Origin: Vairimorpha necatrix
Lineage: Eukaryota
DNA: 64,000 nucleotides
Assembly (NCBI GenBank): GCA_036630325.1
Contig: CP142736.1
Location: forward strand, 682,001-746,000
Reading direction: 5' to 3'
Position numbers and translations under genes: made by a program. Below the pieces are notes generated by a model. The model was not told the origin of the DNA, made no database searches, and saw only the letters and a program-made list of their open reading frames with translations. This document shows, in pieces, positions 1,934 through 42,680 of the stretch (positions are counted from its first letter, which is position 1; each line of letters opens with the position of its first letter).

Positions 1934-1992
1934 ATGGCGACAATGCGAATGCCAAAGATAATTTAGAGAATATTATCAAAAAACTAGCAGGA

Positions 1993-9073: not shown

Positions 9074-9100
<27 letters not shown>
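9074..9100. repeat. (TA)n microsatellite
   Basis: About 13 perfect TA units. Confidence 0.9.
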
Positions 9101-9104
<4 letters not shown>

Positions 9105-9979
9105 ACCTGGTTTTCGGGACGAACACTATTATCAGGACATTATTCATATTCTAAACGAGAACAAAGTTTAGAACATATTTTTTGGCCTTTGACATATATA
9201 TACATATAAAAAATAATACTAACACAAACCTTTAAGAAATACATAATATAATGGTCAAATGAAATTTTTGGTGTTAACATCATAAACGCATAATTAGTTT
9301 AAGCAATTGTATCAATTTATCCTGTTACAAGTCAGCAATTAAGTAGGTGCGACGTTTAGGAATTCAAATTTCATCATGCGAATATGGAAAAAGGTTAAAA
9401 ATATAAAACAAGAATGAGGTTTTACTGATGTTATGTTGGAAATTGATATTTAAAGTCGTTTCCTAAATTTGATAAAATTTGTCATTAACGGCCGAAAAAA
9501 ATACACATAATTGTATTGTGAACTGTGCATTCACATACTTTCAAAAACGCTGTATTATTGACCATATATCATCATATAAAATTATAAATTACTAATTAAA
9601 AATAACTTTAATATTTGTTTAATCTGTACTAAATGCTTGAAAGAAAAATATCAGAGACCAATAGATTTGATATTTTACCTTTTCTGTTAAAATTATCAAT
9701 GCCTGCATTGTTTTGTGTTATTATTTCACTAATATTTCTATGTATTTTTTGGATTGTTTGTGACGATTGGATTCAACTTAGTGATATAATACGATTAATT
9801 TTTTGTAATGTTAATGCGAAACAAAGCCAATCTATAATTTTTATGTAAAACTGTACTGTTTTAGAGACAGATTTTTGAATAAATTGATTTACAACGATCT
9901 CATATTTCCGGTTTAAAAGTTTTAGACCTTTAGGTATCACTTGATGTTATATGTTAGTGTATTGGTGGAAGATATTCGA

Positions 9980-25547: not shown

Positions 25548-26794
25548 CACCAGGTTGATTCTGCCTGACGTAGACGCTATTCCCTAAGATTAACCCATGC
25601 ATGTTTTTGATATGGAAAAATGGACTGCTCAGTAATACTCACTTTATTTAATGTATTAAATTAGTATAACTGCGTTAAAGTGTAGCATAAGACATATACA
25701 GTAAGAGTGAGACCTATCAGCTAGTTGTTAAGGTAATGGCTTAACAAGGCAATGACGGGTAACGGTATTACTTTGTAATATTCCGGAGAAGGAGCCTGAG
25801 AGACGGCTACTAAGTCTAAGGATTGCAGCAGGGGCGAAACTTGACCTATGGATTTTATCTGAGGCAGTTATGGGAAGTAATATTCTATTGTTTCATATTG
25901 TAAAAGTATATGAGGTGATTAATTGGAGGGCAAATCAAGTGCCAGCAGCCGCGGTAATACTTGTTCCAAGAGTGTGTATGATGATTGATGCAGTTAAAAA
26001 GTCCGTAGTTTATATTTAAGAAGCAATATGAGGTGTACTGTATAGTTGGGAGAGAGATGAAATGTGACGACCCTGACTGGACGAACAGAAGCGAAAGCTG
26101 TACACTTGTATGTATTTTTTGAACAAGGACGTAAGCTGGAGGAGCGAAGATGATTAGATACCATTGTAGTTCCAGCAGTAAACTATGCCGACGATGTGAT
26201 ATGATATTAATTGTATTAGATGATAGAAATTTGAGTTTTTTGGCTCTGGGGATAGTATGATCGCAAGATTGAAAATTAAAGAAATTGACGGAAGAATACC
26301 ACAAGGAGTGGATTGTGCGGCTTAATTTGACTCAACGCGAGGTAACTTACCAATATTTTATTATTCAGAGAAGATTTATAATCTGAGAATGATAATAGTG
26401 GTGCATGGCCGTTTTTAATGGATGCTGTGAAGTTTTGATTAATTTCAACAAGACGTGAGACCCTTTTATTAATAGACAGACACAATCAGTGTAGGAAGGA
26501 AAGGATTAAAACAGGTCCGTTATGCCCTCAGACATTTTGGGCTGCACGCGCAATACAATAGATATATAATCTTTATGGGATAATATTTTGTAAGAGATAT
26601 TTGAACTTGGAATTGCTAGTAAATTTTATTAAATAAGTAGAATTGAATGTGTCCCTGTTCTTTGTACACACCGCCCGTCGCTATCTAAGATGATATGTGT
26701 TGTGAAATTAGTGAAAACTACTTGAACAATATGTATTAGATCTGATATAAGTCGTAACATGGTTGCTGTTGGAGAACCATTAGCAGGATCATAA
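25548..26794 (+). rRNA. Microsporidian SSU rRNA (about 1.25 kb)
   Basis: 5' CACCAGGTTGATTCTGCC plus universal blocks GTGCCAGCAGCCGCGG, TTGTACACACCGCCCGTC, AAGTCGTAAC and GGATCA. Confidence 0.98.
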
Positions 26795-26831
26795 TAAGTT
26801 AAATTTAAATTAATTAGTAATTATTAAATTT
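26795..26831 (+). other. Very short ITS (about 37 bp)
   Basis: AT-rich spacer between the SSU end and the LSU start. Ends are approximate. Confidence 0.8.
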
Positions 26832-28427
26832 ACCCACACATGGGATCAATAGGATACCATAACGATGAAGGTCGTAATAGAATACGAAAGTATATTATTT
26901 ACCTAATTAATATATTTATAATGTATTGATAACCCTTTGAACTTAAGCATATCATTAAAAGGAGGAAAAGAAACTAACTAGGATTTCTTTAGTAGCAGCG
27001 AGTGAACAAGAAATAACCCTCCATTGTAATCCTTAATTGGAGTTGTAAATGGTTTATTCTATTAATTATATTTATAGAGAATATTATATTCGTTATTAAT
27101 AGAATAGAATAATGTACTTGAGTAGAGCTGCTTGGTAGTGCAGTTTGAATAAAGGTAGAATGAAATATCTAAGGTTAAATATAATGGTATACCGATAGAA
27201 AATAAGTACTGCGAAGGAACTTGTGAAAATGTGTGGAGTTTAGCCTTATTTTTAAGGACCCGTCTTGAAACACGGACCAAGGAGATTATAATTATAGCAA
27301 GATAAAAATTAAATTTTTTAATCTTTATTAACTTGATTAGTTATAATTATAAGACCCGAAACACAGTGAACTATACATGTTCTGGTTGAAGATAAGCAAC
27401 AGTTTATTGGAGGACCATAATCATTCTGACGTGCAAATCGATGATTTAAGATGTGTATAGTGGCGAAAGACCAATCGAACTGTGTGGTAGCTGGTTCACA
27501 GCGAAATGTCTCTCAGGACAGCAGTTATTATTATATAGGACATAGATGTAGGACACTGTTATAGTTTTTTTACTATGAGAAATCTTTAATTCTATGGAAT
27601 TATATAAATTAAATTTATATAATGAATCTATTGTATAACTAGTGGGCACATGATTGTAAGAATGATGTGCAAAAAGGGATGAACCTTATGAAATATTAAA
27701 TATTCTAAATAGTAGATATTATACCATAAATATGATGAATACATTGAGACAGTAGGGCGGTTGTTATGGAAGTAGAAATCCGCTAAGAAACGTGTTACAA
27801 CGTACCTACCGAATGTATTATTGTATAAAATGGAAGAAGATTACTACTTTTATGAGATGTTTCTAATAAATATTTAGGTAGCTGTGCAATTTGTTTGTAT
27901 TGAAGTATATATGTGAGTATATATAGAAGAAACAAATGAGCCGATCTTGGAGGCAGTAACAATATATTTGTATAGATATAGACTAGGGTTTTCAATTATT
28001 ATTGAAGTGAATCGGTGTTATTTATAAAAACAAAAAAGATTAATAATTCTTTATTAAATTATTATAAGGTAACTTGATAATGACAGTATATTTCAATAAA
28101 TTTAAGATAAATGAATTAAATTTTATTTTAACTATGGATTGTCATGATAAGAAATAGTTAATTATATATACTTGATAAAAATAAAATAATTTTAACCGTA
28201 CCTATACACCGCATCAGGTGTCTTTGTATCATAACAAATATTTTAAATTAAAGTAAGTAAGGGAATTCGGCAAATTAGATCTGTAACTTTGGGATAAAGA
28301 TTGGCTCTAGCATGCTAGAACTTTTACTATGTAAGGAATCTGACTGTTTATTAAAAACATAGCTTTTTGTATTTACAAGAAGTGAATTCTGCCCAGTGCA
28401 TTTATTGTTAAAGTTGTGTAAGCGAAT

Positions 28428-28480
<53 letters not shown>

Positions 28481-28579
28481 TTAATTGGTGACGCGCATGA
28501 ATGGAGCAACGAGATTCCTACTGTCCCTACTTACAATTTTGTGAAACCACGAGACAAGGGAACGGGCTTGTTATTTATC

Positions 28580-28611
<32 letters not shown>

Positions 28612-29046
28612 TTAGTATGTTTTAATAAATATTCGGTATATTGTAGAGAGGTGGGAGAAGTATTGTGAAACCACTAGTATGTTTGAATATTTATTTATTA
28701 GAATATATGGGGAGTTTGGCTGGGGCGGTACAGCTGTTAAAAAGTAACACAGCTGTCCTAAGGTAGATGAATGATGGATGGTAACCATCAGTTTATTATA
28801 AGGGAATAAATCTGCTTTACTTTATGCATATGACTGTATTTAGTAGGGAAACCTTGGCCTAGCGATCCCAATTACATTCATTATGTATTGGGTGATTGAA
28901 AAGTTACCACAGGGATAACTGGCTTGTAGCAGGCAAGCGATCATAGCGATTCTGCTTTTTGATTCTTCGATGTCGTCTCTTCTGATCATCGTAGTGTATA
29001 TGTTACGAAGTGTTGGATTGTTCACCCGGTAATGAGGAACGTGAGA

Positions 29047-29088
<42 letters not shown>

Positions 29089-29311
29089 TAAGTATTTTTG
29101 AGTGAACTTTGATAGTACGAGAGGAACTCTAAGTGATGACCACTGGTAGTGCGATTAACTATTAAGTTATGTTGCTTAGCTACGTCGTTTCGATTAAGGC
29201 TGAAAGCCTCTTAAGCCTGAAGCGTAGCTCAAAGATACATTTAGGAGAATACTACTCTTTTAAGCAGAACTGTAAGAATGAAGGTGTATGCCGACATTTT
29301 GAGGTTACTGC
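26832..29311 (+). rRNA. Microsporidian LSU rRNA with fused 5.8S (about 2.48 kb)
   Basis: 5.8S-like CGATGAAG, GACCCGTCTTGAAACACGGACCAAGGAG, GTAACTATGACTCTCTTAAGGTAGCCAAA, sarcin-ricin loop AGTACGAGAGGAAC. Followed by a T run. The 3' end is approximate. Confidence 0.97.
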
Positions 29312-29380
29312 TTTTTTTGTATGTATAGTAGGTGTTGTATACTATAAGAGAGCGTACTTTATGTCTAGATTTGGTACCCT

Positions 29381-29449
29381 ACCCTCCACAAGAGAGCGTC
29401 CACGTCGCGGAGGGTGGGACCGATGTTTTTTAACTAGGTGCAGATCTCT
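29381..29449 (+). ncRNA. HDV-like self-cleaving ribozyme (predicted)
   Basis: P1 ACCCTCC (29381-87) / GGAGGGT (29409-15). P2 AGAGA (29391-95) / TCTCT (29445-49). P3 GCG/CGC with L3 TCCACGT. P1.1 CC/GG (29416-17). P4 ACC..GTT[TTTT]AAC..GGT. J4/2 G-C-AGA with candidate catalytic C29441. Confidence 0.85.
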
Positions 29450-29450
29450 A

Positions 29451-29881
29451 AGTCTTACCAACCTTCGGCTGCTGGTTGGTAAGTAGGGTCAGCTATACTC
29501 TAGGGGTGGGAGACCCATTGCTGGTGAGAAGGACACCGTTAACTTTCGAGTAATTCTTCATATTTTTAACCTGGGAGAGGTTGGGCATGATACTGAAGCT
29601 GTATTGTTCCGCTGAACTGAGTCGTGTTCTTAAATGGTGTATTGAACCAGGCGTTGTGTTTTCGTCAGGTCCGCGAAATATGTAGTCAGAGATGACTAAG
29701 GATCTGTTACCTACGGGAACAAATTTTTCTCCTACAAGCGAGGCCGTTGAGGTATGCTGGCGTGTAATCGCAATTATTGATGTTTTTCTGGTTGGTGGAG
29801 TTTTTGGTGGCTTGGTGGCTTTTCTTCGTTTTGCTGATTCTGTCTTTTTTACAATAAACAATTTTATTTTTTTTTTTTATT
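29451..29881 (+). mobile_element. Short non-autonomous element sharing the LINE 3' UTR
   Basis: Flanked by an exact 28-bp direct repeat (29423-29450 and 29882-29909). 29569-29881 is a diverged copy of the LINE 3' end (37153-37474, 41160-41474). The first 115 bp or so are unrelated to the LINE. Confidence 0.8.
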
Positions 29882-29908
29882 ATGTTTTTTAACTAGGTGC
29901 AGATCTCT

Positions 29909-31582
29909 ATGAAGGGTAAAGTAAGAGAAAGCAGGAGCGAGCTCAGTAGAGCAAAAAGTGACCACTTTGGTGGTCCAAACAACAATTTAGATACAGAAAT
30001 GTATTTAAAACAACAAACTAAGCATGTATATGCTAGTAAAAGTTTCCCAAGTGTTACTTTTAAAAATGATGGAGAAATGAAATATTTTCTCAAGAAAATC
30101 AAAATTCTTTCAAAAAGAATTAATAAAAATGATATTTTTGACACATCAAAAAAAGATAACAATAAAGATCTTATTGATCTTAAAAGATACATATCTAGCA
30201 CTACTGAATTAGTATTGATTCAGCAGACATATCTGGAGCTCTTTCATGAAAAGCTAGAAAAACAAAACATCAAACTAAAAAATTTGATTAAAAATAATGT
30301 GATGGATGACAGTGATCAAATTACTGATTCATCAAAAAATAAATTTGAGATAATGATTGAGAATCACTCAAAAGAATGTGTAGAACAAAAGGATAATAAC
30401 TCCGATGTTCCAAATGATACCAGTAGCGAAACCCTTCAGTTAGCTACTGGAAACAATGATATTTCTAAATTAGAAATCATAAATGAAGATGTTTTAATTA
30501 ATGTCAAAAATATCGTGTCTGCTGTCAAAGTAGAAGAAGAAGATCGATTGTCAGAAGATGGCAAAAGAAAATGTATAGGTGTCTCAAATGCGTCTACAAA
30601 TATTATAATTAACAAGAATAGTAAAACACAAGATGGTAAGCTAGATATAGCCTCCATTAACAAAAAAGCAGTAGTTAGACATCTGTCAACTATCTCTGCT
30701 ATTATAGCTGGTAAAAGAAAAGCTCCTAAGAATGAAGTCAAACTTTACCATACAAATGAAGACGGATGGACATCTGTCAAACACACATTCAAGCCTAAAG
30801 TCCAGATAGACTTGAAGAAAAACAGAAGGGGTAAAACCACGTATAAATCCAACTTTAATAGATTTAAATCACTTAAAGTGGAATCCGCTGGCAATGTAAA
30901 AGTGCCCAAAAATTCTATTCATGCAGCTTTACATGAGAAAAACAAATTATCTACTAAAGACTATAAAAAAAAAAGATTACAATATCATAAAATAAATTTT
31001 ACTCAAAAAATGAAAAATAGAAACAATGAGAAATGTCAACAAAAAAGAAGTCCAGTTTTTCCAGTGAAAAACTGGGCCAAAGAGCTAACGGAAGAAGCTC
31101 TTATGAAAATTATAAAGGATGGTAGAATTATTTCCAAATGTAAGTTTAGGCTAGCTCTTGCTTCTGGACTCGGATTACAAGGGAAACCTCAATCTAGAGA
31201 CGCATGGGCAGCCCTAACGGATGTTGAAAATAAAGATATACCACTTATAAAACAATTTAAAGATTCGGAAGTAGTACTTTTGATGATTAGAGAAAACGTG
31301 TGCCCTAAGGTACTAGGCAAAATTAAAGAAAAGTTCGTAGGTTCTAATATCTGTGAGGAAGTTAATTTCTTCATCGACTTTTTGTCTTTAACAAAAACAA
31401 CTGTTCTAGGAGAACTACAAAGACTCTCTGGAACGCATAAAAACTTTGTACCACTTGTTAAAGCATGTAGGTACATAACTAAAGAATTAAATAAAGAAAA
31501 GCCAAACCATGGATATTTCATTTATTTAGAAAATATGATGGGTGAGCCTGCCCGAGAATCTAAGGACTTTAATAATGAATAA
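29909..31582 (+). CDS. LINE ORF1 (outer copy), basic, no recognisable domain
   Basis: Intact ORF of about 557 aa starting MKGK, paralogous to 31685-33379. Its stop overlaps the ORF2 ATG. Confidence 0.85.
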   Translation: MKGKVRESRSELSRAKSDHFGGPNNNLDTEMYLKQQTKHVYASKSFPSVTFKNDGEMKYFLKKIKILSKRINKNDIFDTSKKDNNKDLIDLKRYISSTTELVLIQQTYLELFHEKLEKQNIKLKNLIKNNVMDDSDQITDSSKNKFEIMIENHSKECVEQKDNNSDVPNDTSSETLQLATGNNDISKLEIINEDVLINVKNIVSAVKVEEEDRLSEDGKRKCIGVSNASTNIIINKNSKTQDGKLDIASINKKAVVRHLSTISAIIAGKRKAPKNEVKLYHTNEDGWTSVKHTFKPKVQIDLKKNRRGKTTYKSNFNRFKSLKVESAGNVKVPKNSIHAALHEKNKLSTKDYKKKRLQYHKINFTQKMKNRNNEKCQQKRSPVFPVKNWAKELTEEALMKIIKDGRIISKCKFRLALASGLGLQGKPQSRDAWAALTDVENKDIPLIKQFKDSEVVLLMIRENVCPKVLGKIKEKFVGSNICEEVNFFIDFLSLTKTTVLGELQRLSGTHKNFVPLVKACRYITKELNKEKPNHGYFIYLENMMGEPARESKDFNNE

Positions 31583-31684
31583 AGTATCCTTGTTAAAGTT
31601 CTGTTTTTATAGGAAATTATTTTCCTATAACAAAAGTGATATTTTTAAATCTCTAAATAAAAAAACTCATAATCCAATTGGATA

Positions 31685-33379
31685 ATGAAGGGTAAAGCGC
31701 AACAAACCAGGAGCAAGCTCAGTAGAGCAAAAAGTGACCACTTTGGTGGTCCAAACAACAATTTAGATACAGAAATGTATTTAAAACAACAAACTAAGCA
31801 TGTATATGCTAATAAAAGTTTCCCAAGTGTTACTTTCAAAAATGATGGAGAAATGAAATATTTTCTCAAGAAAATCAAAATTCTTTCAGAAAGAATTAAT
31901 AAAAACGATATTTTTGACACGTCAAAAAAAGAAAATAACAAAGATCTTCTTGATATTAAAAGATACATATCTAGCACTACTGAATTAGTATTGATTCAGC
32001 AGACATATTTGGAGCTCTTCCATGATAAGCTAGAAAAACAAAATATCAAATTAAAAAATTTGAAAAAAAATAATCTGATGGATGACAGTAATCAAATTAC
32101 AGAATCAACAAAAAATAAAATTGAGATGATGATAGAGAATCACTCAAAAGAATGTGTAGAACAAAAGGATAATAACTCCGATGTTCCAAATGATACCAGT
32201 AGCGAAACCCTTCAGTTAGCTACTGGAAACAATGATATTTCTAAATTAGAAATCATCAATGAAGATGTTTTAATTAATGTCAAAAATCTCCCATCTGCTG
32301 TCATAAATCTCGACACTGCTGTCAAAGTAGAAGAACAAGATAAATTGTCAGAAGATGGCAAAAGAAAATGTATAGATGTTTCAAAGGCATCTACAGATAT
32401 TATAATTAATAAAAATATTAAACCAAAAGATGGTAAGCTAGATATAGCTTCCATCAACAAAAAAGCAGTAGTTAGACATCTGTCAACTATCTCTGCTATT
32501 ATAGCTGGTAAAAGAAAAGCTCCTAAGAATGGAGTCAAGCTTTTCCATATAAACGAAGACGGATGGACATCTGTCAAACACACATTCAAGCCTAAAGTCC
32601 AGATAGACTTGAAGAAAAACAGAAGTGGTAAAACCACAGATAAAACCAACTTTAATAGATTTAAATCACTTAAAGTAGAAACTAGTGGCAATGTAAAAGT
32701 GCCTAAAAAGATTAATCATGAAGCTGTAAAGAGAAAAGATATCATTCCTAAAAGAGATCATGAAAAAAGAAGATTACTAAATCAGAAAATAAATTTTACA
32801 AAAAAAACGAAGGACAGAAAAAATGAGAAATGTCAACAAAAAAGAAGGCCAGTTTTACCAAAGAAAAACTGGGCCAAAGAGCTAACTGAAGAAGCTCTTA
32901 TGAAAATTATAAAGGATGGTAGAATTATTTCCAAATGTAAGTTTAGGCTAGCTCTTGCTTCTGGACTCGGATTGAAAGGGAAACCTCAATCTAGAGACGC
33001 TTGGGCAGCCTTAGCTGATGTGGAAAATAAAGATATACCACTTATAAAACAATTTAAAGACTCGGAAGTAGTACTTCTGATGATTAGAGAACACGTGTGC
33101 CAAAAGGTACTAAGCAAGATTAAAGAAAAGTTCGGAGGTTCTAATATCTGCGATGAAGTTAATTTCTTCATCGACTTTTTGTCTTTAACAAAAACAACTG
33201 TTCTAGGAGAGCTGCAAAGACTCTCTGGAACGCATAAAAATTTTGTACCGCTTGTAAAAGCATGTTGGTACATAACTAAAGAATTAAATAAAGAAAAGCC
33301 AAACCATGGTTCCTTCATTTATTTAGAAAATATGATGGGTGAGCCTGCCCGAGAATCTAAGGACTTTAACAATGAATAA
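31685..33379 (+). CDS. LINE ORF1 (inner copy), 564 aa
   Basis: Intact ORF, a diverged paralog of 29909-31582. Confidence 0.88.
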   Translation: MKGKAQQTRSKLSRAKSDHFGGPNNNLDTEMYLKQQTKHVYANKSFPSVTFKNDGEMKYFLKKIKILSERINKNDIFDTSKKENNKDLLDIKRYISSTTELVLIQQTYLELFHDKLEKQNIKLKNLKKNNLMDDSNQITESTKNKIEMMIENHSKECVEQKDNNSDVPNDTSSETLQLATGNNDISKLEIINEDVLINVKNLPSAVINLDTAVKVEEQDKLSEDGKRKCIDVSKASTDIIINKNIKPKDGKLDIASINKKAVVRHLSTISAIIAGKRKAPKNGVKLFHINEDGWTSVKHTFKPKVQIDLKKNRSGKTTDKTNFNRFKSLKVETSGNVKVPKKINHEAVKRKDIIPKRDHEKRRLLNQKINFTKKTKDRKNEKCQQKRRPVLPKKNWAKELTEEALMKIIKDGRIISKCKFRLALASGLGLKGKPQSRDAWAALADVENKDIPLIKQFKDSEVVLLMIREHVCQKVLSKIKEKFGGSNICDEVNFFIDFLSLTKTTVLGELQRLSGTHKNFVPLVKACWYITKELNKEKPNHGSFIYLENMMGEPARESKDFNNE

Positions 33380-36300
33380 AGTATCTTTGTTAAAGTCCTG
33401 TTATTATAGGAAATTATTTTCCTATAACAAGAGTGATATTTTCAAATCTCTAAATAAAAAAACGCATAATCCAATTGGATTTACTCAGATTAAAAATACT
33501 TTCCAAACGACAACGAGATTGAATAGTCTCAAATATTTTTCTATTAGAAAGAATATGTGGTGGAAGAAAGTACAAGAACAATATTGTATTGTCAAGATAC
33601 AAAGAATTCCTTATGGAGTGAAAGATCTCCTCAAAGACTTATGTAAGAAGAACTCTCTTTTGGAGAATTCCATTATTACAGCAAGAAAGTATAGACGAAG
33701 AGACACGTCTTTTACAAAAATAATAGTTGAAAAACTATACGCAAATTTATTGATTAAGACAGTTAAAGCTAAAGGCTTTAAAGTTTTAAATGATAATAGA
33801 AAAAAACTAGAGAAATCTAGTAAAGTAAATAAAAAGACCAAAGAGAACATAAAACTCTTAAGTCTAAACATTAACCATCTCTCTAACAAGAGAGAAGAAC
33901 TCGAGTGGCTTCTAAAGAAGGAGGAACCAGAAATTATGTGTTTACAGGAAACTTGGAGACAATCTACAAGACCTTTAAAACTTGAAAAATACACTACAGT
34001 TGAAACACTTAGTAGTGGAAAAAATAAACCAGGATTAATAACTCTGGTTAGAAATAATGGAGCGATCAGATGTTCCAAAAAAGGAACCGACTCAAACATT
34101 CTGCAAACTGTAGTTGAGTTTAGTTCAGCAGGCAAATGGATTAAGTATTTAGTCTTAAATGTCTACATACCACAAAACAAGGATCTCAAAAGGGAGACCT
34201 TGGCCAGATTATTTTCTCTTTTAGAAAAAGAGAATTTCAGAAATAACTATAGTGAGATCATAGTGATGGGAGATATGAATATGCAGAGTTCTAGTCTCAA
34301 GAAAAAACTAAAGGTAGTTGGTTTGCCAGTTACAATAAAATATAACAGCAACGATGGTACAAGGATTCTCAAAGATGGTAAAAGATCTAAGAGAAAAATT
34401 GATACCATCTTTCGACTAAAAAGTAATGATAATGAGAAGATCATTATATCCAAGTCTTGGGTATTAAGTGATCACTTAGTGCTCAAAAGAAATATTAAAC
34501 TTACTGTTGATAAGACCTCAGATCAACTAGTTTATGATAAGAAGATGCTGGAAAATCCAAAAGTGATTAAAAAGCTTAAAAAGAAGTTGTGTAATCAACA
34601 ATTAAACATGAATAATCTTCCTGAGATTATTCAAAAAGTTTGTACATCTTTGAAGATTTACAAAAAGAGAGGAGGCCATACTGGACTTACAATGAGATGG
34701 AGATATTTAAAAGTCTTCAAAGAAAAACGTCTAGCAGCAAGAGCTGTTATGAAAAATTATAATGAAATCAACTCAATTAGATTCGAATATCTCAAAAAGA
34801 GAGTAGACGAAACTAAAAAGTTGATTCGCAAAGATAGATCGAAACTTTGGGCTTTAAGAGGAATAAAGCTCTTTAAAAGTAACAGATCCCGAGAATTCTG
34901 GCAATGGCTGAAAAATAGAAGTGTCTCCATTCGTTTGGATCAAGTGGCTCTAATTGACCACAATAAGATTCTTCAGACTTGCCGAGAAAGAAGCTAGAAA
35001 TAGCGAATAAATTTTACGCTGATTTGGCGTCAGAGAATGATATAGATGTCAATGTCTATGATAAAGTAGATCTTGTTGATCTTCCCCCAGAGATAACAGA
35101 TGAAGAATTTCTATCCGCACTGAAGAAATGTGGAAATAACAAAGCAGCCGGTCCTGATGAGATTCCAACCGAGCTATACAAACACTTACTGACTAGAGCA
35201 GTAGAAGATAAATTCTTTAAATTCATGCTACATGAATTTAATAAATATATTTGTGGAAATAGTCCTCCTGAATACTGGAGCATGGCAAACATGATTTGCC
35301 TTCACAAAAAAGGAGATGAGACAGATCTGAATAATTATAGGGGAATCTCCTTAATTAACACAATTAGTAAGATCTATCTCAAGATAATAAATGACAGGTT
35401 AACTCAATTTGTCGAAGAACAAGATATACTCTCTAGATACCAAGCAGGATTCCGAGCAGGTGAAGAGTGTATGAATCAGATTACATCTCTACTAGAAATA
35501 GTGAGAAGAAGAGAATTCAGAGGCCTGAACACAATAATGTGTTTCATTGACTTTGAAAAAGCTTATGATAATGTAAGTCATGACTTATTATTTGAGAAGC
35601 TTACAAAACTTAATATCCCATTGTATTTAATCAATACAATAAAGGGTATTTATAAATATACCACCATGCGTGTGAAAATTGGTGGTGACACGTCAAGTGG
35701 CTATAGCTACAGAAAAGGAGTGAGACAAGGGTGCCCTTGTTCTCCAATGCTGTTCAATATATTCATCAATGATATTTTTGACGGCATAGAAGGAGTTTTG
35801 ATCCCAAGATCAAATACGAGAGTTCCGGGACTGATGTTCGCAGATGATATTGTTGTCTTCGGAAACAACATTGATGATCTTAATAATAAGATCAATAGAA
35901 TTTCTAATTGGGCGGTTAATAACAGAATGAGGATTAACTGCACAAAAAGCGGAATATTAGAATGGGCTGCTCATTCTAAAATACAAGAATTCCGAAGTTT
36001 GTATTCTCTCAGTACAGACTTTGGTGTGATTGAGGAAGTCACTGAATACAGATATCTAGGTGTCTTAATTAAAAGAAACACGCTAGAAGAACACTTGGTC
36101 AAAGACGCAGCAATGCGTGGCAAGAAAGCCTTGGACGCCTTGATGCCCAAGTTGATGAATAATAGCATCAACCTTTACTTCAAGGCGATCTTAATCAAAT
36201 GTGTACTAGTACCCACACTAATGTATGGTAGTGAACTGTGGGGAATGTCAAGTACAAGAGCAGGTAAGATTAACAGGATCTTAAGAAAATCTATCAGAAT

Positions 36301-37063
36301 GATATTCAAAAGAGTATTAGTTCCACTAGATAGAGTAATGGACGAGTTCAGTATCGAACGAATTCATATACAAGCAGCTTTAAGTAGATTTAGAGCATAC
36401 AACAAGTGGAAACACAATAAGACAATCATATCGGATATAATCTCAATCAATCCGAAAGAAAGAAAAACTACCTGGTGTTCAAGAACACAAAGATGGTTAA
36501 AACGATTTGTCGGCAACGATTATGAATCAACTGATAGTAGATTTATCACTACAAAAATAATTGATGTACTAAGAAGTCGAAGAACTCTAAATACTTCTTT
36601 AGCTGCATCAATAGCAAACCAATATGACATAAGAAATTCACAAATAAAATATGTCATGAACAAAATAAATAATAGGAAAATTAGAACATATGCTAGATTG
36701 AGATGTAATCTAGTAAAGTAATCCTCAGCAATAGCCAATTCAAAAAGAATATCTATGAGTTATAGAAACGAATGCTTTTTGTGTGATGGACCACAAGAAA
36801 ATTTAGAACACTTTCTGCTGGAGTGCGTCTGTTTAACTGACATTAGATCATCTTTTGAAAATAAACTGCCTCTACTGACTTGTTCAAAAACAAATATCCG
36901 AGATAAAACCAAGCAACTCCTTGGTAATAAAATCGGACTAAAAAATAACCCAGATAAGATAAAAGAACTTTGTTGCACTATAGAGTTCTTAGATAGAATG
37001 GTTGTCTCTAGAAGAATTATGATTAATAACAAACTGAAGGAGATAACGAAACAAAATAATTAA
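33372..37063 (+). pseudogene. LINE ORF2 (inner copy): AP endonuclease, RT and C-terminal CCHC finger, with one frameshift and one in-frame stop
   Basis: APE motifs LNINHL, CLQETW, MGDMN, IDTIF, LSDH. RT motifs NYRGISL, FIDFEKAYD, GVRQGCPCSPMLF, FADD. Finger CFLC..ENLEHFLLEC. 1-nt deletion near 34986 and TAA at 36719-36721. Confidence 0.92.
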
Positions 37064-37473
37064 TATAGCTTAATTAAAAAAAATGAAAATCTAGAATTAG
37101 AAGAAAGAAGTGTTATATTATTAACAAAAAGACTTATATTTAATTATATTTGACCTGGGAGAGGTCGGGCATGATACTGATGCTGTATTGTTCCGCTGAA
37201 CTGAGTCGTGTTCTTAAATGGTGTATTGAGCCAGGCGTTTTCGTTTTTCATTAGACCCGTGAAAGTGGGTCTCTAGTCATATTATGACTAAGGATGTGTC
37301 CTATGGGAACAAACTTTTCTCCTACAAGCGAGGCCGTTAAGGTATGCTGGCGTGTAAACGCAATTATTGATGATTTTTTCTTTATTAGTGGAGTTTTTGG
37401 TGGCTTGGAGGCTTTTCTTCGTTTTGCTGATTCTGTCTTTTTTACAATAAACAATTTTATTTTTATTTTTTTT

Positions 37474-40400
37474 TAATCCAATTGGATATAATAAAATAAA
37501 AAATACTTTCAAAACACCAAGGAGACTGAATAGTCTCAAATATTTTTCTATTAGAAAGAATATGTGGTGGAAGAAAGTACAAGAACAATATTGTATTGTC
37601 AAGATACAAAGAATTCCTTATGGAGTGAAAGATCTCCTCAAAGACTTATGTAAGAAGAACTCCCTTTTGGAGAATTCCATCATTACAGCAAGAAAGTATA
37701 GACGAAGAGACACTTCTTTTACAAAAATAATAGTTGAAAAACTATACGCAAATTTATTGATTAAGACAGTTAAAGCTAAAGGCTTTAAAGTTTTAAATGA
37801 TAATAGAAAAGAACTAGAGAAATCTAGTAAAGTAAATAAAAAGACCAAAGAGAACATAAAACTCTTAAGTCTATACATTAACCATCTCTCTAACAAGAGA
37901 GAAGAACTCGAGTGGCTTCTTAAGAAGGAGAAACCAGAAATTATGTGTTTACAAGAAACTTGGAGACAATCTACAAGACCTTTGAAACTTGAAAAATACA
38001 CTACAGTTGAAACACCTAGTGGTGGGAAAAATAAACCAGGATTAATAACTCTGGTGAGAAATAATGGGGCAATTAGATGTAGCAAAAAGGGAACTGACTC
38101 AAACATTCTGCAAACAGTGGTTGAGTTTAGATCAGCAGGCAATTGGATTAAGTATTTGATCTTGAATGTCTACATACCACAAGACAAGGATCTCAAGAGA
38201 GAAGTCTTGGCCAGATTATTATTTCTCTTAGAAAAAGAGAAATTCAGAAATAACTATAGTGAGATCATAGTGATGGGAGATATGAACATGCAGAGTTCTA
38301 GTCTCAAGAAAAAACTAAATGTAGTTGGTTTGCCAGTTACAATAAAATATAACAGCAACGATGGTACAAGGATTCTCAAAGATGGTAAAAGATCTAAGAG
38401 AAAAATTGATACCATCTTTCGACTAAAAAGTAATGATAATGAGAAGATCATTATATCCAAGTCTTGGGTATTAAGTGATCACTTAGTGCTCAAAAGAAAA
38501 ATTAAACTTGCCGTTGATAAGATCTCAGATCAACTAGTTTATGATAAGAAGATGCTGGAAAATCCAAAAGTGATTAAAAAGCTTAAAAAGAAGTTGTGTA
38601 ATCAACAATTAAACATGAATAATCTCCCTGAGATTATTCAAAAAGTTTGTACATCTTTGAAGATTTACAAAAAGAGAAGTGTCCATACTGGACTTACAAT
38701 GAGATGGAGATATTTAAAAGTCTTCAAAGAAAAACGTCTAGCAGCAAGAGCTGTTATGAAAAATTACAATGAAATCAACTCAATTAGATTCGAATATCTC
38801 AAAAAGAGAGTAGACGAAACTAAAAAGTTGATTCGCAAAGATAGATCGAAACTTTGGGCTTTATGAGGAATAAAGCTCTTTAAAAGTAACAGATCCCGAG
38901 AATTCTGGCAATGGCTGAAAAATAGAAGTGTTTCCATTCGTTTGGATCAAGTGGCTCTAATTGACCACAATAAGATACTTCAGACTTGTCGAGCAAAGAA
39001 GCTAGAAATAGCGAATAAATTTTACGCGAATTGGCGTCAGAGAATGATATAGATGTCAATGCCTATGATAAAGTAGATCTTGTTGATCTTCCTCTAGAGA
39101 TAACAGATGAAGAATTTTTATCCGCACTGAAGAAATGCGGAAATAACAAAGCAGCCGGTCCTGATGAGATTCCAACCGAGCTATACAAACACTTACTGAC
39201 TAGAGCAGTAAAAGATAAATTCTTTAAATTCATGCTAAATGAATTTAATAAATATATTTGTGGAAATAGTCCTCCTGAATACTGGAGCATGGCAAACATG
39301 ATTTGCCCCCACAAAAAAGGAAATGAGACAGATCTGAATAATTATATGGGGAATCTCCTTAATTAACACAATTAGTAAGATCTATCTCAAGATAATAAAT
39401 GACAGGTTAACTCAATTTGTCGAAGAACAAGATATACTCTCTAGATACCAAGCAGGATTCCGAGCAGGTGAAGAGTGTATGAATCAGATTACATCTCTAC
39501 TAGAAATAGTGAGAAGAAGAGAATTCAGAGGCCTGAACACAATAATGTGTTTCATTGACTTTGAAAAAGCTTATGATAATGTAAGTCATGACTTATTATT
39601 TGAGAAGCTTACAAAACTTAATATCCCATTGTATTTAATCATTACAATAAAGGATATTTATAAATATACCACCATGCGTGTGAAAATTGGTGGTGACACG
39701 TCGAGTGGCTATAGCTACAGAAAAGGAGTGAGACAAGGGTGCCCTTGTTCTCCAATGCTGTTCAATATATTCATCAATGATATTTTTGACGGCATAAATG
39801 GTGTTTTGATCCCAAGATCAAATACGAGAGTTCCGGGACTGATGTTCGCAGATGATATTGTTGTCTTCGGAAACAACATTGATGATCTTAATAATAAGAT
39901 CAATAGAATTTCTAATTGGGCAGTTAATAACAGAATGAAGATTAACTGCTCAAAAAGCGGAGTATTAGAATGGGCTGCTCATTCTAACATACAAGAATTC
40001 CGAAGTTTGTATTCTCTCAGTACAGACTTTGGTGTGATTGAGGAAGTCACTGAATACAGATATCTAGGTGTCTTAATTAAAAGAAACACGCTAGAAGAAC
40101 ACTTGGTCAAAGACGCAGCAATGCGTGGCAAGAAAGCCTTGGACGCCTTGATGCCCAAGTTGATGAATAGCAGCATCAATCTCTACTTCAAGGCGATCTT
40201 AATAAAATGTGTACTAGTACCCACACTAATGTATGGCAGTGAATTGTGGGGAATGTCAAGTACAAGAGCAGGTAAGATTAACAGGATCTTAAAAAATCTA
40301 TCAGAATGATATTCAAAAGAGTATTAGTTCCACTAGATAGAGTAATGGACGAGTTCAATATCGAACGAATTCATATACAAGCAGCTTTAAGTAGATTTAG

Positions 40401-41070
40401 AGCATACAACAAGTGGAAACACAATAAGACAATCATATCGGATATAATCTCAATCAATCCGAAAGAAAGAAAAACTACCTGGTGTTCAAGAACACAAAGA
40501 TGGTTAAAACGATTTGTCGGCAACGATTATGAATCAACTGATAGTAGATTTATCACTACAAAAATAATTGATGTACTAAGAAGTCGAAGAACTCTAAATA
40601 CTTCTTTAGCTGCATCAATAGCAAACCAATATGACATAAGAAATTCACAAATAAAATATGTCATGAACAAAATAAATAATAGGAAAATTAGAACATATGC
40701 TAGATTGAGATGTAATCTAGTAAAGTAATCCTCAGCAATAGCCAATTCAAAAAGAATATCTATGAGTTATAGAAATAAATGCTTTCTGTGTGATGGACCA
40801 CAAGAAAATTTAGAACATTTTCTGTTAGAGTGCGTCTGTTTAACTGACATTAGAACATCCTTTGAAAATAAACTGCCCCTACTGACTTGTTCAAAAACAA
40901 ATATCCGAGATAAAACCAAGCAACTCCTTGGTAATAAAATCGGACTAAAAAATAACCCAGATAAGATAAAAGAACTTTGTTGCACTATAGAGTTCTTAGA
41001 TAGAATGGTTGTCTCTAGAAGAATTATATTTAATAACAAACTGAAGGAGATAACGAAACAAAATAATTAA
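37474..41070 (+). pseudogene. LINE ORF2 (outer copy), continuing from 31575-31684, with multiple lesions
   Basis: Same domains as the inner copy. TGA at 38864-38866, frameshifts near 39027, 39347 and 40293, and TAA at 40726-40728. Confidence 0.92.
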
Positions 41071-41582
41071 TATAGCTTAATTAAAAAAAATGAAAATCTA
41101 GAATTAGAAGAAAGAAGTGTTATATTATTAACAAAAAGACTTATATTTAATTATATTTGACCTGGGAGAGGCCGGGCATGATACTGATGCTGTATTGTTC
41201 AGCTGAACTGAGTCGTGTTCTTAAATGGTGTATTGAGCCAGGCGTTTTCGTTTTTCATCAGACCCATGAAAGTGGGTCTCTAGTCATATTATGACTAAGG
41301 ATGTATCCTATGCGGACAAACTTTTCTCCTACAAGCGAGGCCGTTAAGGTATGCTGGCGTGTAAACGCGATTATTGATGTTTTTCTTATTGGTGGAGTTT
41401 TTGGTGGCTTAGTGGCTTTTCTTCGTTTTGCTGATTCTGTCTTTTTACAATAAACAATTTTATTTTTATTTTTAATGTATTTTTTAAGCTTTAGTTGATT
41501 TTTTTTATTTAGTATTGAATGTGCCAGCGTTGGTTTTCTACGGGATATAACTAAAAACACAATAATAAAATAATTTAATTCA

Positions 41583-42680
41583 TCAATTTTCATAATTATT
41601 ACTATCAATCAGGCTTTTATAATGTTGATTTATATAATACATAAGCTTGACTTTGTTATTACACTCTAAAATGGCATCCGTAATGCTCTTCTTAGCTTCT
41701 TGGTAATAATACATTATATCGTTTCTTGTATCGCTGGCGTAGTGTTTTACCACATAATTAGTGAAATAAATTATGCAGTCTGTTTTAAAAGATAATTCTG
41801 AAAATCCCAAAAATTTACGAGGATGTAATAGATATCTTTTTTCCTCTCCAACGAAGACAGTTATTTTTATGCAAGCACTGTCTATTTTTTCAATTAGATT
41901 AGAAACAAATATTTGTATTTCTTGGTCAGTAAAAAATTCTGAAACACAAGAGTAAAGATGAGCGTCAATAGGCGGCGTAGATAAATGAATTGTTGATGAT
42001 TGTATATGAGAATTAGAAAGATTATTGTTTTTTAAAATATCTTCTTGAGATTTGATTTTTGAGTCATTTCCTTCAAATTTCCGTGTAATTTTTTCTTTTA
42101 TATATATTTTCATGTTTTTCTCGTACAGTTCTTCGTTTCCTTTATAAAGTATGTAATTCGATATAACACACCATATTTTTTCATTAGTTTCTATTTCTTT
42201 ATATCTTTCATGAAATTTTATAAACTTGCCGTATAAATAAGTGATAATTGGATCTTTATATAAATATTCTTTAACGGGACGAGTTCGTTTTTTAAGTATT
42301 ATATCAGGCTCAATAATTTCAGTTTTTGGTGGTAATTTCGTATCGCTTGCTTTTCTTTTTCTTCTTACATTGTAAAGTGACTCTTCAAATGTTTTTATTT
42401 CATTATCATTTTCTGTAGAAAAATTTGGCTTGGTTTTAAAAAAATTTATAACTTTTCTAGTTGAATAAGGAAGAGGGCCTTGGAATACAAAAAAGTTATT
42501 TAGTGAACATTCAAGTTCTACTTGTTCATTTTCGCCTTCAAATGCTTCTATAAAGTCGTCTTCATAATCATATTCGTCCAATTTACTTCTTCTTCTTTTT
42601 TTCTCTGTTACAGTTTTTTTCAAATCTACTTCTGTAGATTTTAAAACATCAAAAGTAATTTCTTTAATAACTTTTCCCAT
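41583..42680 (-). CDS. HPC2/ubinuclein (HUN/HRD) domain protein, probable HIR histone-chaperone subunit
   Basis: Motif DEYDYEDDFIE...NNFFVFQGPL matches the Hpc2-related domain pattern YDxxDxFID...GFFVxxGxL. Basic NLS-like stretches and CCCC before the ATG. Confidence 0.75.
   Translation of the reverse strand: MGKVIKEITFDVLKSTEVDLKKTVTEKKRRRSKLDEYDYEDDFIEAFEGENEQVELECSLNNFFVFQGPLPYSTRKVINFFKTKPNFSTENDNEIKTFEESLYNVRRKRKASDTKLPPKTEIIEPDIILKKRTRPVKEYLYKDPIITYLYGKFIKFHERYKEIETNEKIWCVISNYILYKGNEELYEKNMKIYIKEKITRKFEGNDSKIKSQEDILKNNNLSNSHIQSSTIHLSTPPIDAHLYSCVSEFFTDQEIQIFVSNLIEKIDSACIKITVFVGEEKRYLLHPRKFLGFSELSFKTDCIIYFTNYVVKHYASDTRNDIMYYYQEAKKSITDAILECNNKVKLMYYINQHYKSLIDSNNYEN

What the first reader, a model, noticed from the sequence alone, without database searches (positions are those of the whole stretch)
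25548..41474. Ribozyme-headed LINE lies about 70 bp downstream of the LSU rRNA in sense orientation: a possible Pol I hitch-hiker
Seen: the LSU ends near 29311 and the predicted cleavage site is at 29381, on the same strand. ORF1 lacks the CCC/GGG motif found before most cellular ATGs here. The classical R2 site TTAAGG|TAGCCA in this LSU (about 28456-28467) is empty. Known: R2 is co-transcribed with rRNA and released by its HDV-like ribozyme, but it disrupts the 28S. Inference: this element could use Pol I read-through from the 3' spacer without damaging the rRNA, and its cleavage would also trim the pre-rRNA 3' end. A single locus cannot prove targeting.
Basis: inference. Interest (0 to 1): 0.8.

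Follow-up and report, generated by a model that had tools for sequence, protein, structure and literature searches.

The report
Ribozyme-headed LINE behind microsporidian rRNA gene
Just past the end of a microsporidian large-subunit rRNA gene, on the same strand, sits a decayed, nested cluster of jumping genes whose first 69 bases fold like a self-cutting HDV-type ribozyme, so it could ride on rRNA transcription, though no RNA evidence was available to test that.

Summary
The anatomy is largely real, but it is not one simple element. The window holds a microsporidian rDNA unit: SSU 25548-26794 and LSU from 26910, whose last helix closes at 29311-29312. At 29381-29449, 69 nt past the LSU on the same strand, all helices of an HDV-like ribozyme are present. 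The Rfam match is weak (CPEB3 model, 17.6 bits, below its threshold). In one public run, copies join head-to-tail exactly at 29382/29383, the predicted cleavage site. Behind the ribozyme lies an APE-type LINE family related to Vairimorpha copies. It is best read as a resident full-length copy (29381-29450, 29882-31683, 37476-41476) broken by two later insertions. One is a 431-nt ORF-less unit flanked by a 28-nt duplication. The other is a 5.8-kb 5'-truncated LINE flanked by a 12-nt duplication. The only complete ribozyme is therefore no longer joined to ORF1, and both ORF2 copies are broken. In one run, a single contig identical to the window except for one fewer T in the T run links LSU end, spacer, ribozyme and the next 57 nt. 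Pol I read-through, targeting and cleavage remain untested, because no genome and no RNA run were available. This is a new variant of a known kind and of moderate interest.

The parts
25548..26794 (+). SSU rRNA (microsporidian type)
   Evidence: Rfam RF02542, 1055.7 bits
26910..29312 (+). LSU rRNA; the end is inferred from the last closing helix
   Evidence: Rfam RF02543, 1345.1 bits. The alignment is forced to 29480 with low posterior probability after about 29256. The helix 29263-29271 with 29303-29312 appears in both the MFE and centroid folds.
29312..29380 (+). 3' spacer: T run 29312-29318, an A/U hairpin read by eye at about 29325-29347 (TATAGTA/TACTATA), and a 10-nt copy of AAGAGAGCGT (29346-29355) that recurs in the ribozyme at 29390-29399
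   Evidence: Sequence. The repeat score was reached in 38 of 2000 shuffles.
29381..29449 (+). Candidate HDV-like self-cleaving ribozyme, with cleavage predicted 5' of A29381. P1 is 29381-87 with 29409-15. P2 is 29391-95 with 29445-49. P3 is 29396-98 with 29406-08. L3 is UCCACGU. P1.1 pairs G29416-17 with C29400-01. J4/2 is C29441-A-G-A.
   Evidence: Sequence. The MFE fold recovers P1 and P3. CPEB3_ribozyme model: 17.6 bits, E 0.013 in a 121-nt search. It is the single descriptor hit in the window. X2 contig joints land at 29382/29383.
29423..29450 (+). 28-nt direct repeat, left copy (3' part of the ribozyme)
   Evidence: 100% identical to 29882-29909
29451..29881 (+). 431-nt ORF-less unit. Unique part B (29451 to about 29552) contains a 10-bp hairpin. 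Part C (about 29553-29881) is 88% identical to the LINE 3' UTR and ends in a T run. It is read as an insertion, or as the body of a short non-autonomous element.
   Evidence: 5'-truncated copies that start inside B follow 3' ends in X2.
29882..29909 (+). 28-nt direct repeat, right copy; its last base is the A of the ORF1a ATG
29909..31582 (+). ORF1a (557 aa, no Pfam family), assigned to the resident copy R
   Evidence: Relatives are found only in V. necatrix (58% identity) and V. ceranae (48%).
31672..31683 (+). Palindrome ATCCAATTGGAT, left copy of a 12-nt duplication
   Evidence: The same 12 nt occur at 37476-37487 and, inside copy I, at 33468-33479.
31684..37475 (+). Inserted LINE copy I, starting one base before its ORF1 ATG. 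It holds ORF1b (31685-33379), the EN ORF (33372-34997), the RT ORF (34979-36721), a CCHC tail (36755-37063) and the 3' UTR up to 37475. Reading is interrupted by one frame change near 34987 and by an in-frame stop at 36719-36721.
   Evidence: Pfam Exo_endo_phos 24.5 bits and RVT_1 133.7 bits
37476..41476 (+). Right part of resident copy R: ORF2 in five pieces, then the 3' UTR
   Evidence: 97% identical to 33467-37470. Pfam hits. 98.5% identical to residues 130-262 of a V. necatrix protein whose residues 1-96 match the ORF1a end at 96.9%.
41583..42680 (-). Convergent cellular gene (HUN/ubinuclein domain) that bounds the cluster
   Evidence: Pfam PF08729, 27.1 bits

Best explanation
An APE-endonuclease LINE family of the Vairimorpha/Nosema group starts with a 69-nt HDV-like ribozyme that is followed directly by the ORF1 start codon. 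Such an element needs no promoter of its own. Any transcript entering from upstream is cut 5' of the ribozyme, giving the element RNA a defined 5' end.

One full-length copy (R) landed 69 nt behind the LSU rRNA in sense orientation, outside the mature rRNA. The nearest upstream transcription is therefore Pol I, if Pol I passes the T run at 29312-29318. Cleavage would also leave a 69-nt 3' tail on the pre-rRNA.

Copy R was later hit twice by members of its own family. A 431-nt ORF-less unit inserted inside the ribozyme's 3' part with a 28-nt duplication. A 5.8-kb copy lacking the ribozyme inserted at a palindrome between ORF1 and ORF2 with a 12-nt duplication. Both ORF2 copies are now broken, so the locus is a fossil of this strategy rather than an active source.

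Shown: the fold, the domains, the repeats and the junctions. Inferred: cleavage, use of Pol I, and the order of the insertions.
For: Ribozyme:
- All HDV-type helices, a 7-nt L3 and a C three bases before the P2 3' strand are present.
- The fold is the single hit of my descriptor in the window.
- The core matches the CPEB3 ribozyme model, E 0.013 in a 121-nt search.
- In X2, three listed joints place a new copy at 29382/29383 right after an upstream copy: 29795, 29868 and 29612 going to 29382/3. Two of these contigs read G at the first position.

LINE:
- Exo_endo_phos and RVT_1 domains are present.
- Relatives are 79-85% identical in V. necatrix and 51% identical in N. granulosis.

Nested reading:
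- An exact 28/28 repeat and an exact 12/12 repeat flank blocks that each end in the family's 3' end.
- The ORF1a end and the right-hand ORF2 start are contiguous in a V. necatrix protein. Identity there is 96.9% and 98.5%, against 89.6% and 90.6% for copy I.

Link to rDNA:
- One X1 contig covers 29150-29506 with 0 mismatches and one fewer T at 29312. It supplies 53.1 of the 53.6 depth over 29320-29404.
- Literature: LINE repeats lie between rRNA operon tails in H. tvaerminnensis and G. vavrai (PMC12449221, passages).
- Literature: R2 RNA is cut out of the 28S co-transcript by such a ribozyme, P4 is highly variable, and few positions are invariant (PMC3774820, passages).
Against: - No Rfam family reaches its gathering score. 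Nothing of this class appears at E up to 10 in the 1201-nt search.
- Folding energy is no better than shuffles (z 0.09).
- P4 is weak and P2 has only 5 pairs.
- My descriptor was designed after seeing the site, and about 10% of shuffled windows give a hit somewhere.
- No copy in the window shows a complete ribozyme joined directly to ORF1, and no such joint was listed.
- In X2, two contigs have a T run directly before 29366. In those copies, 15 nt upstream of the proposed cleavage site travel with the ribozyme, or the spacer is shorter.
- A run of 7 T directly after the LSU could end transcription.
- The whole cluster has no target-site duplication.
- X1 may be the sample the window was assembled from, so it may not be independent. 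Contigs also drop rare variants.
- The junction to the LSU is uniform in X1, whereas R2 lineages that cleave at the element's 5' end have variable 5' junctions (PMC3774820, abstract).
Confidence: 0.5

Rival explanations
1. Same parts, different history. The locus is a serial head-to-tail array. A short non-autonomous element (ribozyme, then part B, then a LINE-like 3' UTR; 29381-29881), comparable to the R2 SIDEs, sits behind the LSU. It is followed by 5'-truncated LINE copies that each inserted at the previous copy's T-rich 3' end. Under this reading, the element next to the rRNA is the short parasite, not the LINE.
For: - X2 shows many joints from a 3' end (29874-29878, plus extra T) to variable starts at 29435, 29437, 29447, 29491, 29517 and 29549. 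It also shows joints into ORF1 at 30161, 30344 and 30396. This is the pattern of 5'-truncated copies in tandem.
- The joint 29874 to 29554 is seen in both X2 and X3.
- Part C differs from the LINE 3' UTR by 12% and by indels, and part B is absent from the LINE. The short unit is therefore a family of its own.
- R2 SIDEs have exactly this build: a 5' ribozyme plus a 3' end (PMC3414825, abstract).
Against: - It needs a coincidence. ORF1a stops, and the right-hand ORF2 piece starts, at positions that overlap by exactly 12 nt in element coordinates.
- The ORF1a end and the right-hand piece are one lineage that is contiguous in a V. necatrix protein.
- X2 contigs average about 39 nt. Joints into the 28-nt repeat cannot show whether B or ORF1 follows.
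Confidence: 0.35
2. The position behind the rRNA gene has no functional meaning. The family is dispersed and piles up on itself in repeat-rich DNA. The rDNA unit was copied around the genome, or homogenised, together with its flank. The LINE is expressed from other copies by other read-through or by a promoter of its own, and Pol I stops at or near the T run.
For: - The window is gene-poor and also holds decayed Ty3-like pieces upstream of the rDNA.
- Insertions here went into earlier copies.
- X2 shows ribozyme heads preceded by other copies rather than by LSU.
- In X1 the 3' UTR part reaches depths of 122-374 against 53 for the rDNA end, so most tails are elsewhere.
- V. necatrix has 18-20 dispersed single rDNA loci per pseudo-haplotype (PMC10759460, passage). 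A uniform LSU-spacer-ribozyme junction fits duplication of the unit with its flank.
Against: - A ribozyme head only makes sense with upstream transcription, and here the upstream unit is the rDNA on the same strand.
- In X1, essentially all depth of the ribozyme's 5' half is in the LSU-linked contig (53.1 of 53.6).
- LINE repeats specific to rRNA operon tails are reported in two other microsporidian lineages (PMC12449221).
Confidence: 0.3
3. The HDV-like fold is a chance look-alike, and the LINE's true 5' end lies elsewhere, for example at the ORF1 ATG.
For: - About 0.11 descriptor hits are expected per shuffled window.
- The only Rfam match is below its threshold.
- Stability is not exceptional.
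- Two copies begin at the ORF1 ATG: copy I at 31684/5, and the second ORF1 inside V. necatrix P0123.
Against: - The one hit falls on the sense strand within 70 nt of the point where the LINE sequence begins. Expectation for a 100-nt target is roughly 1e-4, taken.
- L3 and P3 match the CPEB3 core letter for letter except one base.
- 28 nt of the fold are conserved 100% in front of ORF1.
- X2 joints fall at the predicted cleavage site.
Confidence: 0.08
4. The ribozyme has been taken over by the host as the 3'-end processing site of the pre-rRNA.
For: It lies at a fixed 69 nt from the LSU end, and one contig links it to the LSU end in X1.
Against: - There is no comparison across species. The only close relative found (L031, 94.5% identical rDNA) ends before the spacer.
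- The same head occurs in tandem element copies away from rDNA in X2.
Confidence: 0.05

Closest known systems
R2 (28S-specific non-LTR retrotransposon with a 5' HDV-like ribozyme)
   Same: A ribozyme head cuts the element RNA out of an rRNA co-transcript. The element lies in sense orientation to the rRNA, needs no promoter of its own, and has a conserved 3' UTR for priming (PMC3774820 and PMC3414825, abstracts and passages).
   Different: Here the endonuclease is APE-type, not the restriction-like type. There are two ORFs, not one. The element lies behind the mature LSU, not inside it, and the R2 site is intact. Site specificity is not shown.
R2 SIDEs and R2/R1 hybrid SIDEs
   Same: They are short ORF-less units made of a 5' ribozyme plus a LINE 3' end, moved by the LINE's proteins (PMC3414825, abstract).
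   Different: The middle part (B, about 100 nt) is not derived from the LINE seen here. Whether ribozyme and B are one unit, or were joined by an insertion, is unresolved.
L1Tc / NARTc of Trypanosoma cruzi
   Same: An APE-type LINE and its non-autonomous partner share a roughly 77-nt 5' head that is an HDV-like ribozyme acting co-transcriptionally (PMC3185411 and PMC3383444, abstracts from the search listing).
   Different: That head is also an internal promoter, and the elements are dispersed in Pol II polycistrons. No promoter function or rDNA link is known here.
R1 (APE-type, 28S-specific)
   Same: It has an APE endonuclease, two ORFs and an rDNA association.
   Different: R1 sits inside the 28S gene, and as far as I recall no ribozyme head is described for it. 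Here the LSU gene is uninterrupted.
LINE repeats between tail-to-tail rRNA operons in Hamiltosporidium tvaerminnensis and Gurleya vavrai
   Same: In those microsporidia, specific LINE repeats are found predominantly next to the 3' ends of rRNA operons (PMC12449221, passages).
   Different: Those species are from other clades and their operons are paired tail to tail. No ribozyme, orientation or transcription data are given in the passages I read. I could not test relatedness to this family.
CPEB3 ribozyme (Rfam RF00622)
   Same: The P3/L3 core is nearly identical: GCG-U(C/U)CACGU-CGC followed by the P1 3' strand.
   Different: CPEB3 is a mammalian intronic ribozyme. The score here (17.6 bits) is below its gathering score of 35. 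The resemblance is in the core only and may be convergent, as discussed for R2 (PMC3774820).

Membership tests
HDV-like self-cleaving ribozymes | A P1 helix of about 7 pairs starts at the cleavage site, and its 3' strand lies immediately after P3/L3 | tested here: met
   29381-29387 pairs with 29409-29415: 7 Watson-Crick pairs directly after P3. The rule is quoted from PMC3774820.
HDV-like self-cleaving ribozymes | A 3-pair P3 with a short L3, and a 2-pair P1.1 between L3 and the bases after P1 | tested here: met
   GCG/CGC with L3 UCCACGU; G29416-17 can pair with C29400-01
HDV-like self-cleaving ribozymes | P2 closes the second pseudoknot, with a catalytic C in J4/2 just before the P2 3' strand | tested here: met
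   AGAGA (29391-95) pairs with UCUCU (29445-49), preceded by C29441-A-G-A. The spacing rule is recalled from the HDV ribozyme, not taken from a call.
HDV-like self-cleaving ribozymes | Reaches the curated score of an Rfam model of the class | tested here: not met
   Best match is CPEB3_ribozyme at 17.6 bits against a gathering score of 35. Nothing is found at gathering threshold. These models cannot score the pseudoknots.
HDV-like self-cleaving ribozymes | Self-cleavage giving a 5'-OH product | not testable with these tools
   Needs an in vitro transcription and cleavage assay
HDV-like self-cleaving ribozymes | Base-pair covariation among relatives | tested here: inconclusive
   Only fragments of variant copies were visible, as loose ends in X2. 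No relatives' DNA could be fetched.
APE-type non-LTR retrotransposons (LINEs) | An apurinic-type endonuclease domain upstream of a reverse transcriptase | tested here: met
   Exo_endo_phos scores 24.5 and 26.8 bits against a cut-off of 24.5. RVT_1 scores 133.7 and 99.8 bits.
APE-type non-LTR retrotransposons (LINEs) | 5'-truncated copies with a common 3' end and target-site duplications | tested here: met
   Three copies of the 3' end. Exact 28-nt and 12-nt duplications flank the two inner blocks. Variable 5' starts follow 3' ends in X2. No duplication was found for the outermost copy.
R2 | Restriction-like endonuclease C-terminal to the RT, in a single ORF | tested here: not met
   An APE domain lies N-terminal to the RT and there is a separate ORF1
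R2 | Insertion at the conserved 28S site TTAAGG|TAGCCA | tested here: not met
   The site is intact at 28456-28467
Site-specific (rDNA-flank) LINE | Independent insertions at the same position relative to the target in many units and in relatives | tested here: inconclusive
   One locus in the window. One X1 contig links the LSU end to the ribozyme at the depth of the rDNA end, but this does not separate targeting from co-duplication. No genome is held.

The most novel reading that the evidence does not exclude
In this microsporidian, the dispersed single rDNA units all carry a LINE-derived HDV-like ribozyme 69 nt behind the LSU, as part of the Pol I transcription unit. The ribozyme would both set the end of the pre-rRNA 3' spacer and launch the retroelement RNA. 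Its 5'-OH end would escape 5'-to-3' exonuclease-driven termination. This would be an R2-like strategy that does not cost the host a single rRNA gene. The LINE may also have helped to scatter rDNA units across chromosomes.
Probability: 0.12. Interest if true: 0.8.

Novelty: new variant of a known kind. Interest (0 to 1): 0.55.

Why it matters
Ribozyme-headed LINEs that live on rRNA transcription are known only as insertions that inactivate the rRNA gene they occupy (R2). A family that sits just behind the mature LSU would show a cheaper way to tap Pol I. It would also give a concrete mechanism for the LINE-rDNA co-location reported in other microsporidia. It would extend HDV-like ribozymes to microsporidian retroelements: my searches found no paper holding both 'microsporidia' and 'HDV-like ribozyme', and none of the three holding 'microsporidia', 'non-LTR' and 'ribozyme' is, by title and abstract, about such an element. 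It also offers a handle on Pol I termination and 3'-spacer processing in microsporidia, which as far as I recall are poorly known. If the position is only an accident of repeat accumulation, what remains is a new host lineage for a known ribozyme-LINE design.

Tried and rejected
- Whole-genome mapping: no genome is held for this window.
- RNA evidence: no RNA holder was listed by the look-up of sequencing runs. All four runs laid were Logan contigs, so no RNA starts, ends or strand could be read. X2's LSU to ORF1 depth ratio is a few hundred to one, against about 2 to 1 in X1. This made me suspect X2 is RNA, but its kind is only guessed on record, so I draw nothing from it.
- Relatives' DNA, ORF1 route: a scan of metagenome contigs with the first 250 aa of ORF1 gave 192 pattern matches, none confirmed.
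- Relatives' DNA, LSU route: a scan with a 20-nt LSU 3' pattern gave 41 loci. Only L031 is a close relative (94.5%), and it ends at window-equivalent 29222, before the spacer. By blastn the other 40 showed only short conserved-core rRNA matches or none; L025, the one checked with Rfam, is a eukaryote with a separate 5.8S.
- Viral contigs: the ribozyme core pattern and the RT query found nothing.
- The multi-source Rfam call failed internally.
- ORF1 function: no Pfam family, and Atlas hits of at most 0.76, which are uninformative.
- A target-site duplication for the whole cluster was not found. The likeness of the 3' flank (41477 onward) to the 28-nt repeat is not significant (505 of 2000 shuffles).
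Each copy has its own single-base length difference, 34 nt apart. Only the in-frame stop is shared.
- Telomere repeats (TTAGG)n: none. tRNA-like heads: none. The bacterial-type promoter and terminator scan is not informative for this organism.
- LSU length from the V. necatrix ribosome literature: not found in the papers listed.
- Supplementary files of the papers were not opened. Figure and table supplements of PMC12449221 and PMC10759460 may hold rDNA and repeat coordinates that bear on the co-location claim.


Full report
What the window is. Rfam finds a microsporidian SSU rRNA at 25548-26794 and a eukaryotic-type LSU rRNA from 26910, both on the + strand. G+C is about 27-37% and the window is gene-poor, with 17 ATG-ORFs of at least 150 aa in 64 kb. 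Several of these ORFs are decayed Ty3-like retrotransposon pieces upstream of the rDNA. The LINE proteins are closest to Vairimorpha necatrix. Identity is 79-85% for one annotated copy and 97-98.5% for parts of another. Relatives also occur in V. ceranae and Nosema granulosis. The organism is therefore V. necatrix or something very close to it. No genome is held for the window.

End of the LSU. Rfam's global alignment runs to 29480. From about 29256 it is an alignment of an A/U-rich model insert to unrelated sequence, with posterior probability 2-4 out of 10. Folding 29236-29325 gives a terminal helix, 29263-29271 with 29303-29312, in both the MFE and centroid structures. The z-score is -2.75 and 3 of 200 shuffles do as well. 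A run of seven T (29312-29318) follows directly. It is not measured. The R2 site TTAAGGTAGCCA is intact at 28456-28467.

The ribozyme. From A29381 the sequence can form every element of an HDV-like ribozyme:
- P1: 29381-87 with 29409-15, seven Watson-Crick pairs.
- P2: 29391-95 with 29445-49.
- P3: GCG/CGC, 29396-98 with 29406-08.
- L3: UCCACGU, 7 nt.
- P1.1: G29416-17 with C29400-01.
- P4: a weak region.
- J4/2: C29441-A-G-A directly before the P2 3' strand.

The nested part, P1 plus P3, is the minimum-free-energy fold. The energy is not exceptional (z 0.09), which is expected for a pseudoknot that the program cannot score but is still no support. No Rfam family reaches its curated score, and nothing of the class appears at E up to 10 in 1201 nt. 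When only 121 nt are searched, the CPEB3 ribozyme model matches the P1/P3/L3 core at 17.6 bits with E 0.013, against a gathering score of 35.

A descriptor that I wrote after seeing the site hits exactly once on both strands of the window, at 29381-29449. It requires 7-pair P1, 3-pair P3, L3 of 7-8 nt, P1.1, a 5-pair P2 and C-N-R-A before P2. It hits 153 times in 1379 dinucleotide shuffles, or 0.11 per window. The fold alone is thus weak evidence. Its placement on the sense strand at the very start of LINE-family sequence is the strong part.

Independent support comes from public run X2. Listed contig joints go from inside or at the end of an upstream copy to 29382 or 29383: from 29795, from 29868 with a G between, and from 29612 with AA between. 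A loose end before 29382 reads like the 3' end of a variant ribozyme followed by G. Copies thus begin at the predicted cleavage site, as expected if the template RNA is cut there. Against this, two X2 contigs have a T run directly before 29366, so in some copies 15 nt upstream of the site travel along, or the spacer is shorter.

The LINE and the structure of the cluster. Self-comparison and the sequences at the junctions give the following.
- (a) 29423-29450, the 3' part of the ribozyme, recurs 100% at 29882-29909. Its last base there is the A of the ORF1a ATG.
- (b) 29451-29881 lies between the two copies. It consists of about 100 nt of unique sequence (B) plus a part (C) that is 88% identical to the LINE 3' UTR and ends in the family's T-rich 3' end.
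- (c) ORF1a (29909-31582) and ORF1b (31685-33379) are 91% identical.
- (d) 33467-37470 and 37474-41473, each ORF2 plus 3' UTR, are 97% identical.
- (e) The palindrome ATCCAATTGGAT stands at 31672-83 (end of the ORF1a block), at 37476-87 (start of the second ORF2 block), and at 33468-79 in its normal place between ORF1b and ORF2.

The simplest history is nesting. A resident full-length copy R (29381-29450, 29882-31683, 37476-41476) received a 431-nt unit with a 28-nt duplication. It also received a 5.8-kb copy I (31684-37475), which starts one base before its ATG and so lacks the ribozyme, with a 12-nt duplication. A V. necatrix protein supports this. Its residues 1-96 match the ORF1a end at 96.9%, against 89.6% for ORF1b. 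Its residues 130-262 match the start of the right-hand block at 98.5%, against 90.6% for copy I. The two halves I assign to R are therefore one lineage and are contiguous elsewhere. That same protein then runs straight into another ORF1 (M-MKGK...), a second case of a copy that begins at its ATG nested in an older copy.

The rival history is a serial array: a short SIDE-like element followed by truncated LINEs. It is favoured by the many X2 joints from 3' ends to variable starts inside the ribozyme tail, B and ORF1, and by a 321-nt tandem of the C unit in X2 and X3. Both histories may be partly true, because B plus C is clearly a multi-copy family of its own. In either case, a complete ribozyme head of this family sits 69 nt behind the LSU in sense orientation. 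In neither case is a complete ribozyme now joined to an ORF.

State of the genes. Pfam finds Exo_endo_phos at or just above its cut-off (24.5 and 26.8 bits) and RVT_1 (133.7 and 99.8 bits), with a C-terminal CCHC motif. ORF1 has no family. Copy I's ORF2 is read in three pieces and copy R's in five. Each copy has its own single-base length difference at the EN-RT boundary, 34 nt apart. Both share an in-frame stop at a column where three relatives have W. The locus is therefore decayed.

Link to the rDNA. In run X1, one 429-nt contig covers 29150-29506 with no mismatch and one T fewer in the T run. Its depth (53.1) accounts for nearly all depth over the 5' half of the ribozyme (53.6 in bin 29320-29404). 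ORF1 contigs have depths of 4-38 and the C part sums to 122-374. In that sample, the majority form of the LSU end therefore runs into spacer, ribozyme and B, and complete heads are seen only there.

Caveats are that X1 may be the sample behind the window, that contigs drop rare variants, and that depth is one figure per contig. With dispersed single rDNA loci, 18-20 per pseudo-haplotype as reported for V. necatrix (PMC10759460, passage), this pattern means one of two things. Either the element targets this spot, or the rDNA unit spread or was homogenised together with at least 195 nt of flank. The uniform 5' junction leans to the second reading. R2 lineages that cleave at the element's own 5' end have variable 5' junctions (PMC3774820, abstract).

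A paper on microsporidian genome architecture reports that in H. tvaerminnensis and G. vavrai pairs of tail-to-tail rRNA operons surround specific LINE repeats found predominantly there. It also reports that V. necatrix has more repeats near rRNA genes (PMC12449221, passages). Co-location of LINEs with rRNA operon tails is thus in print. A ribozyme or Pol I mechanism is not, as far as my searches show.

Mechanism. Shown: the fold, the domains and the junctions. Inferred: transcripts entering from upstream are cut 5' of A29381. The downstream RNA, with a 5'-OH, is the element RNA. In the intact design the ORF1 AUG follows the ribozyme directly. The conserved 3' UTR is what the RT recognises, which would explain an ORF-less partner with the same tail (compare R2 SIDEs, PMC3414825). 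At this locus the upstream unit is the rDNA, so Pol I read-through is the obvious source. Whether Pol I passes the T run is unknown. ORF1's lack of the CCC/GGG start-context motif (0 of 2 ORF1 starts, against 5 of 6 cellular ORFs) fits a non-standard mode of expression. However, 46% of predicted transposons in V. necatrix also lack it (PMC10759460).

Verdict. It works like R2 but is not an R2, and its build is closest to L1Tc/NARTc and R2 SIDEs. I rate it a new variant of a known kind, with interest 0.55.

Noticed in passing
protein P0123 (V. necatrix); window 31283-31682 and 37475-37873: A V. necatrix protein named 'ATP-dependent RNA helicase' by its source is a read-through chimera. It joins a LINE ORF1 C-terminus, the inter-ORF stretch and the start of the endonuclease, then runs straight into a whole second ORF1 of another subfamily. 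The name looks like an annotation error.
   Followed up: partly
window 31672-31683, 33468-33479, 37476-37487: The 12-nt perfect palindrome ATCCAATTGGAT lies between ORF1 and ORF2 of the LINE. It is the site, and the duplicated target, of the LINE-into-LINE insertion. It may be a preferred nick site.
   Followed up: partly
window 29554-29874 (runs X2 and X3): The 3' UTR-like unit C occurs as a 321-nt head-to-tail tandem (joint 29874 to 29554) in two runs from different studies, one of them a bat gut metagenome. X3 contigs are identical to the window over 29554-29798. This is a satellite-like spread of a LINE tail.
   Followed up: no
window 29346-29355 and 29390-29399: The 10-nt string AAGAGAGCGT (the P2 and P3 5' strands of the ribozyme) is repeated 44 nt upstream in the spacer. 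The score was reached in 38 of 2000 shuffles. It could be a remnant of an older head or a competing alternative pairing partner.
   Followed up: partly
window 36719-36721 and 40726-40728: Both ORF2 copies carry the same in-frame stop where three relatives have W. The copies are 97% identical in ORF2 but only 91% identical in ORF1. This suggests gene conversion between the neighbouring copies, or descent from one defective master.
   Followed up: partly
window 29256-29480: Rfam's LSU_rRNA_eukarya model over-extends by about 170 nt. It aligns its last helices to the spacer, the ribozyme and the hairpin 29456-29485 of part B. Automatic rRNA annotation would swallow the ribozyme.
   Followed up: yes
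window 5111-11308: Decayed pieces of a Ty3-like LTR retrotransposon (integrase, protease, RNase H) lie on both strands upstream of the rDNA unit.
   Followed up: no
run X2, window 29150-29914: Summed contig depth in X2 is about 480,000 on the LSU end and 119,000-728,000 on 29405-29914. It is only about 160 at 29342 and 70-11,600 on ORF1 (three ORF1 bins had none). Either the short unit is extremely abundant in that sample or the run is RNA. The record does not say which.
   Followed up: no
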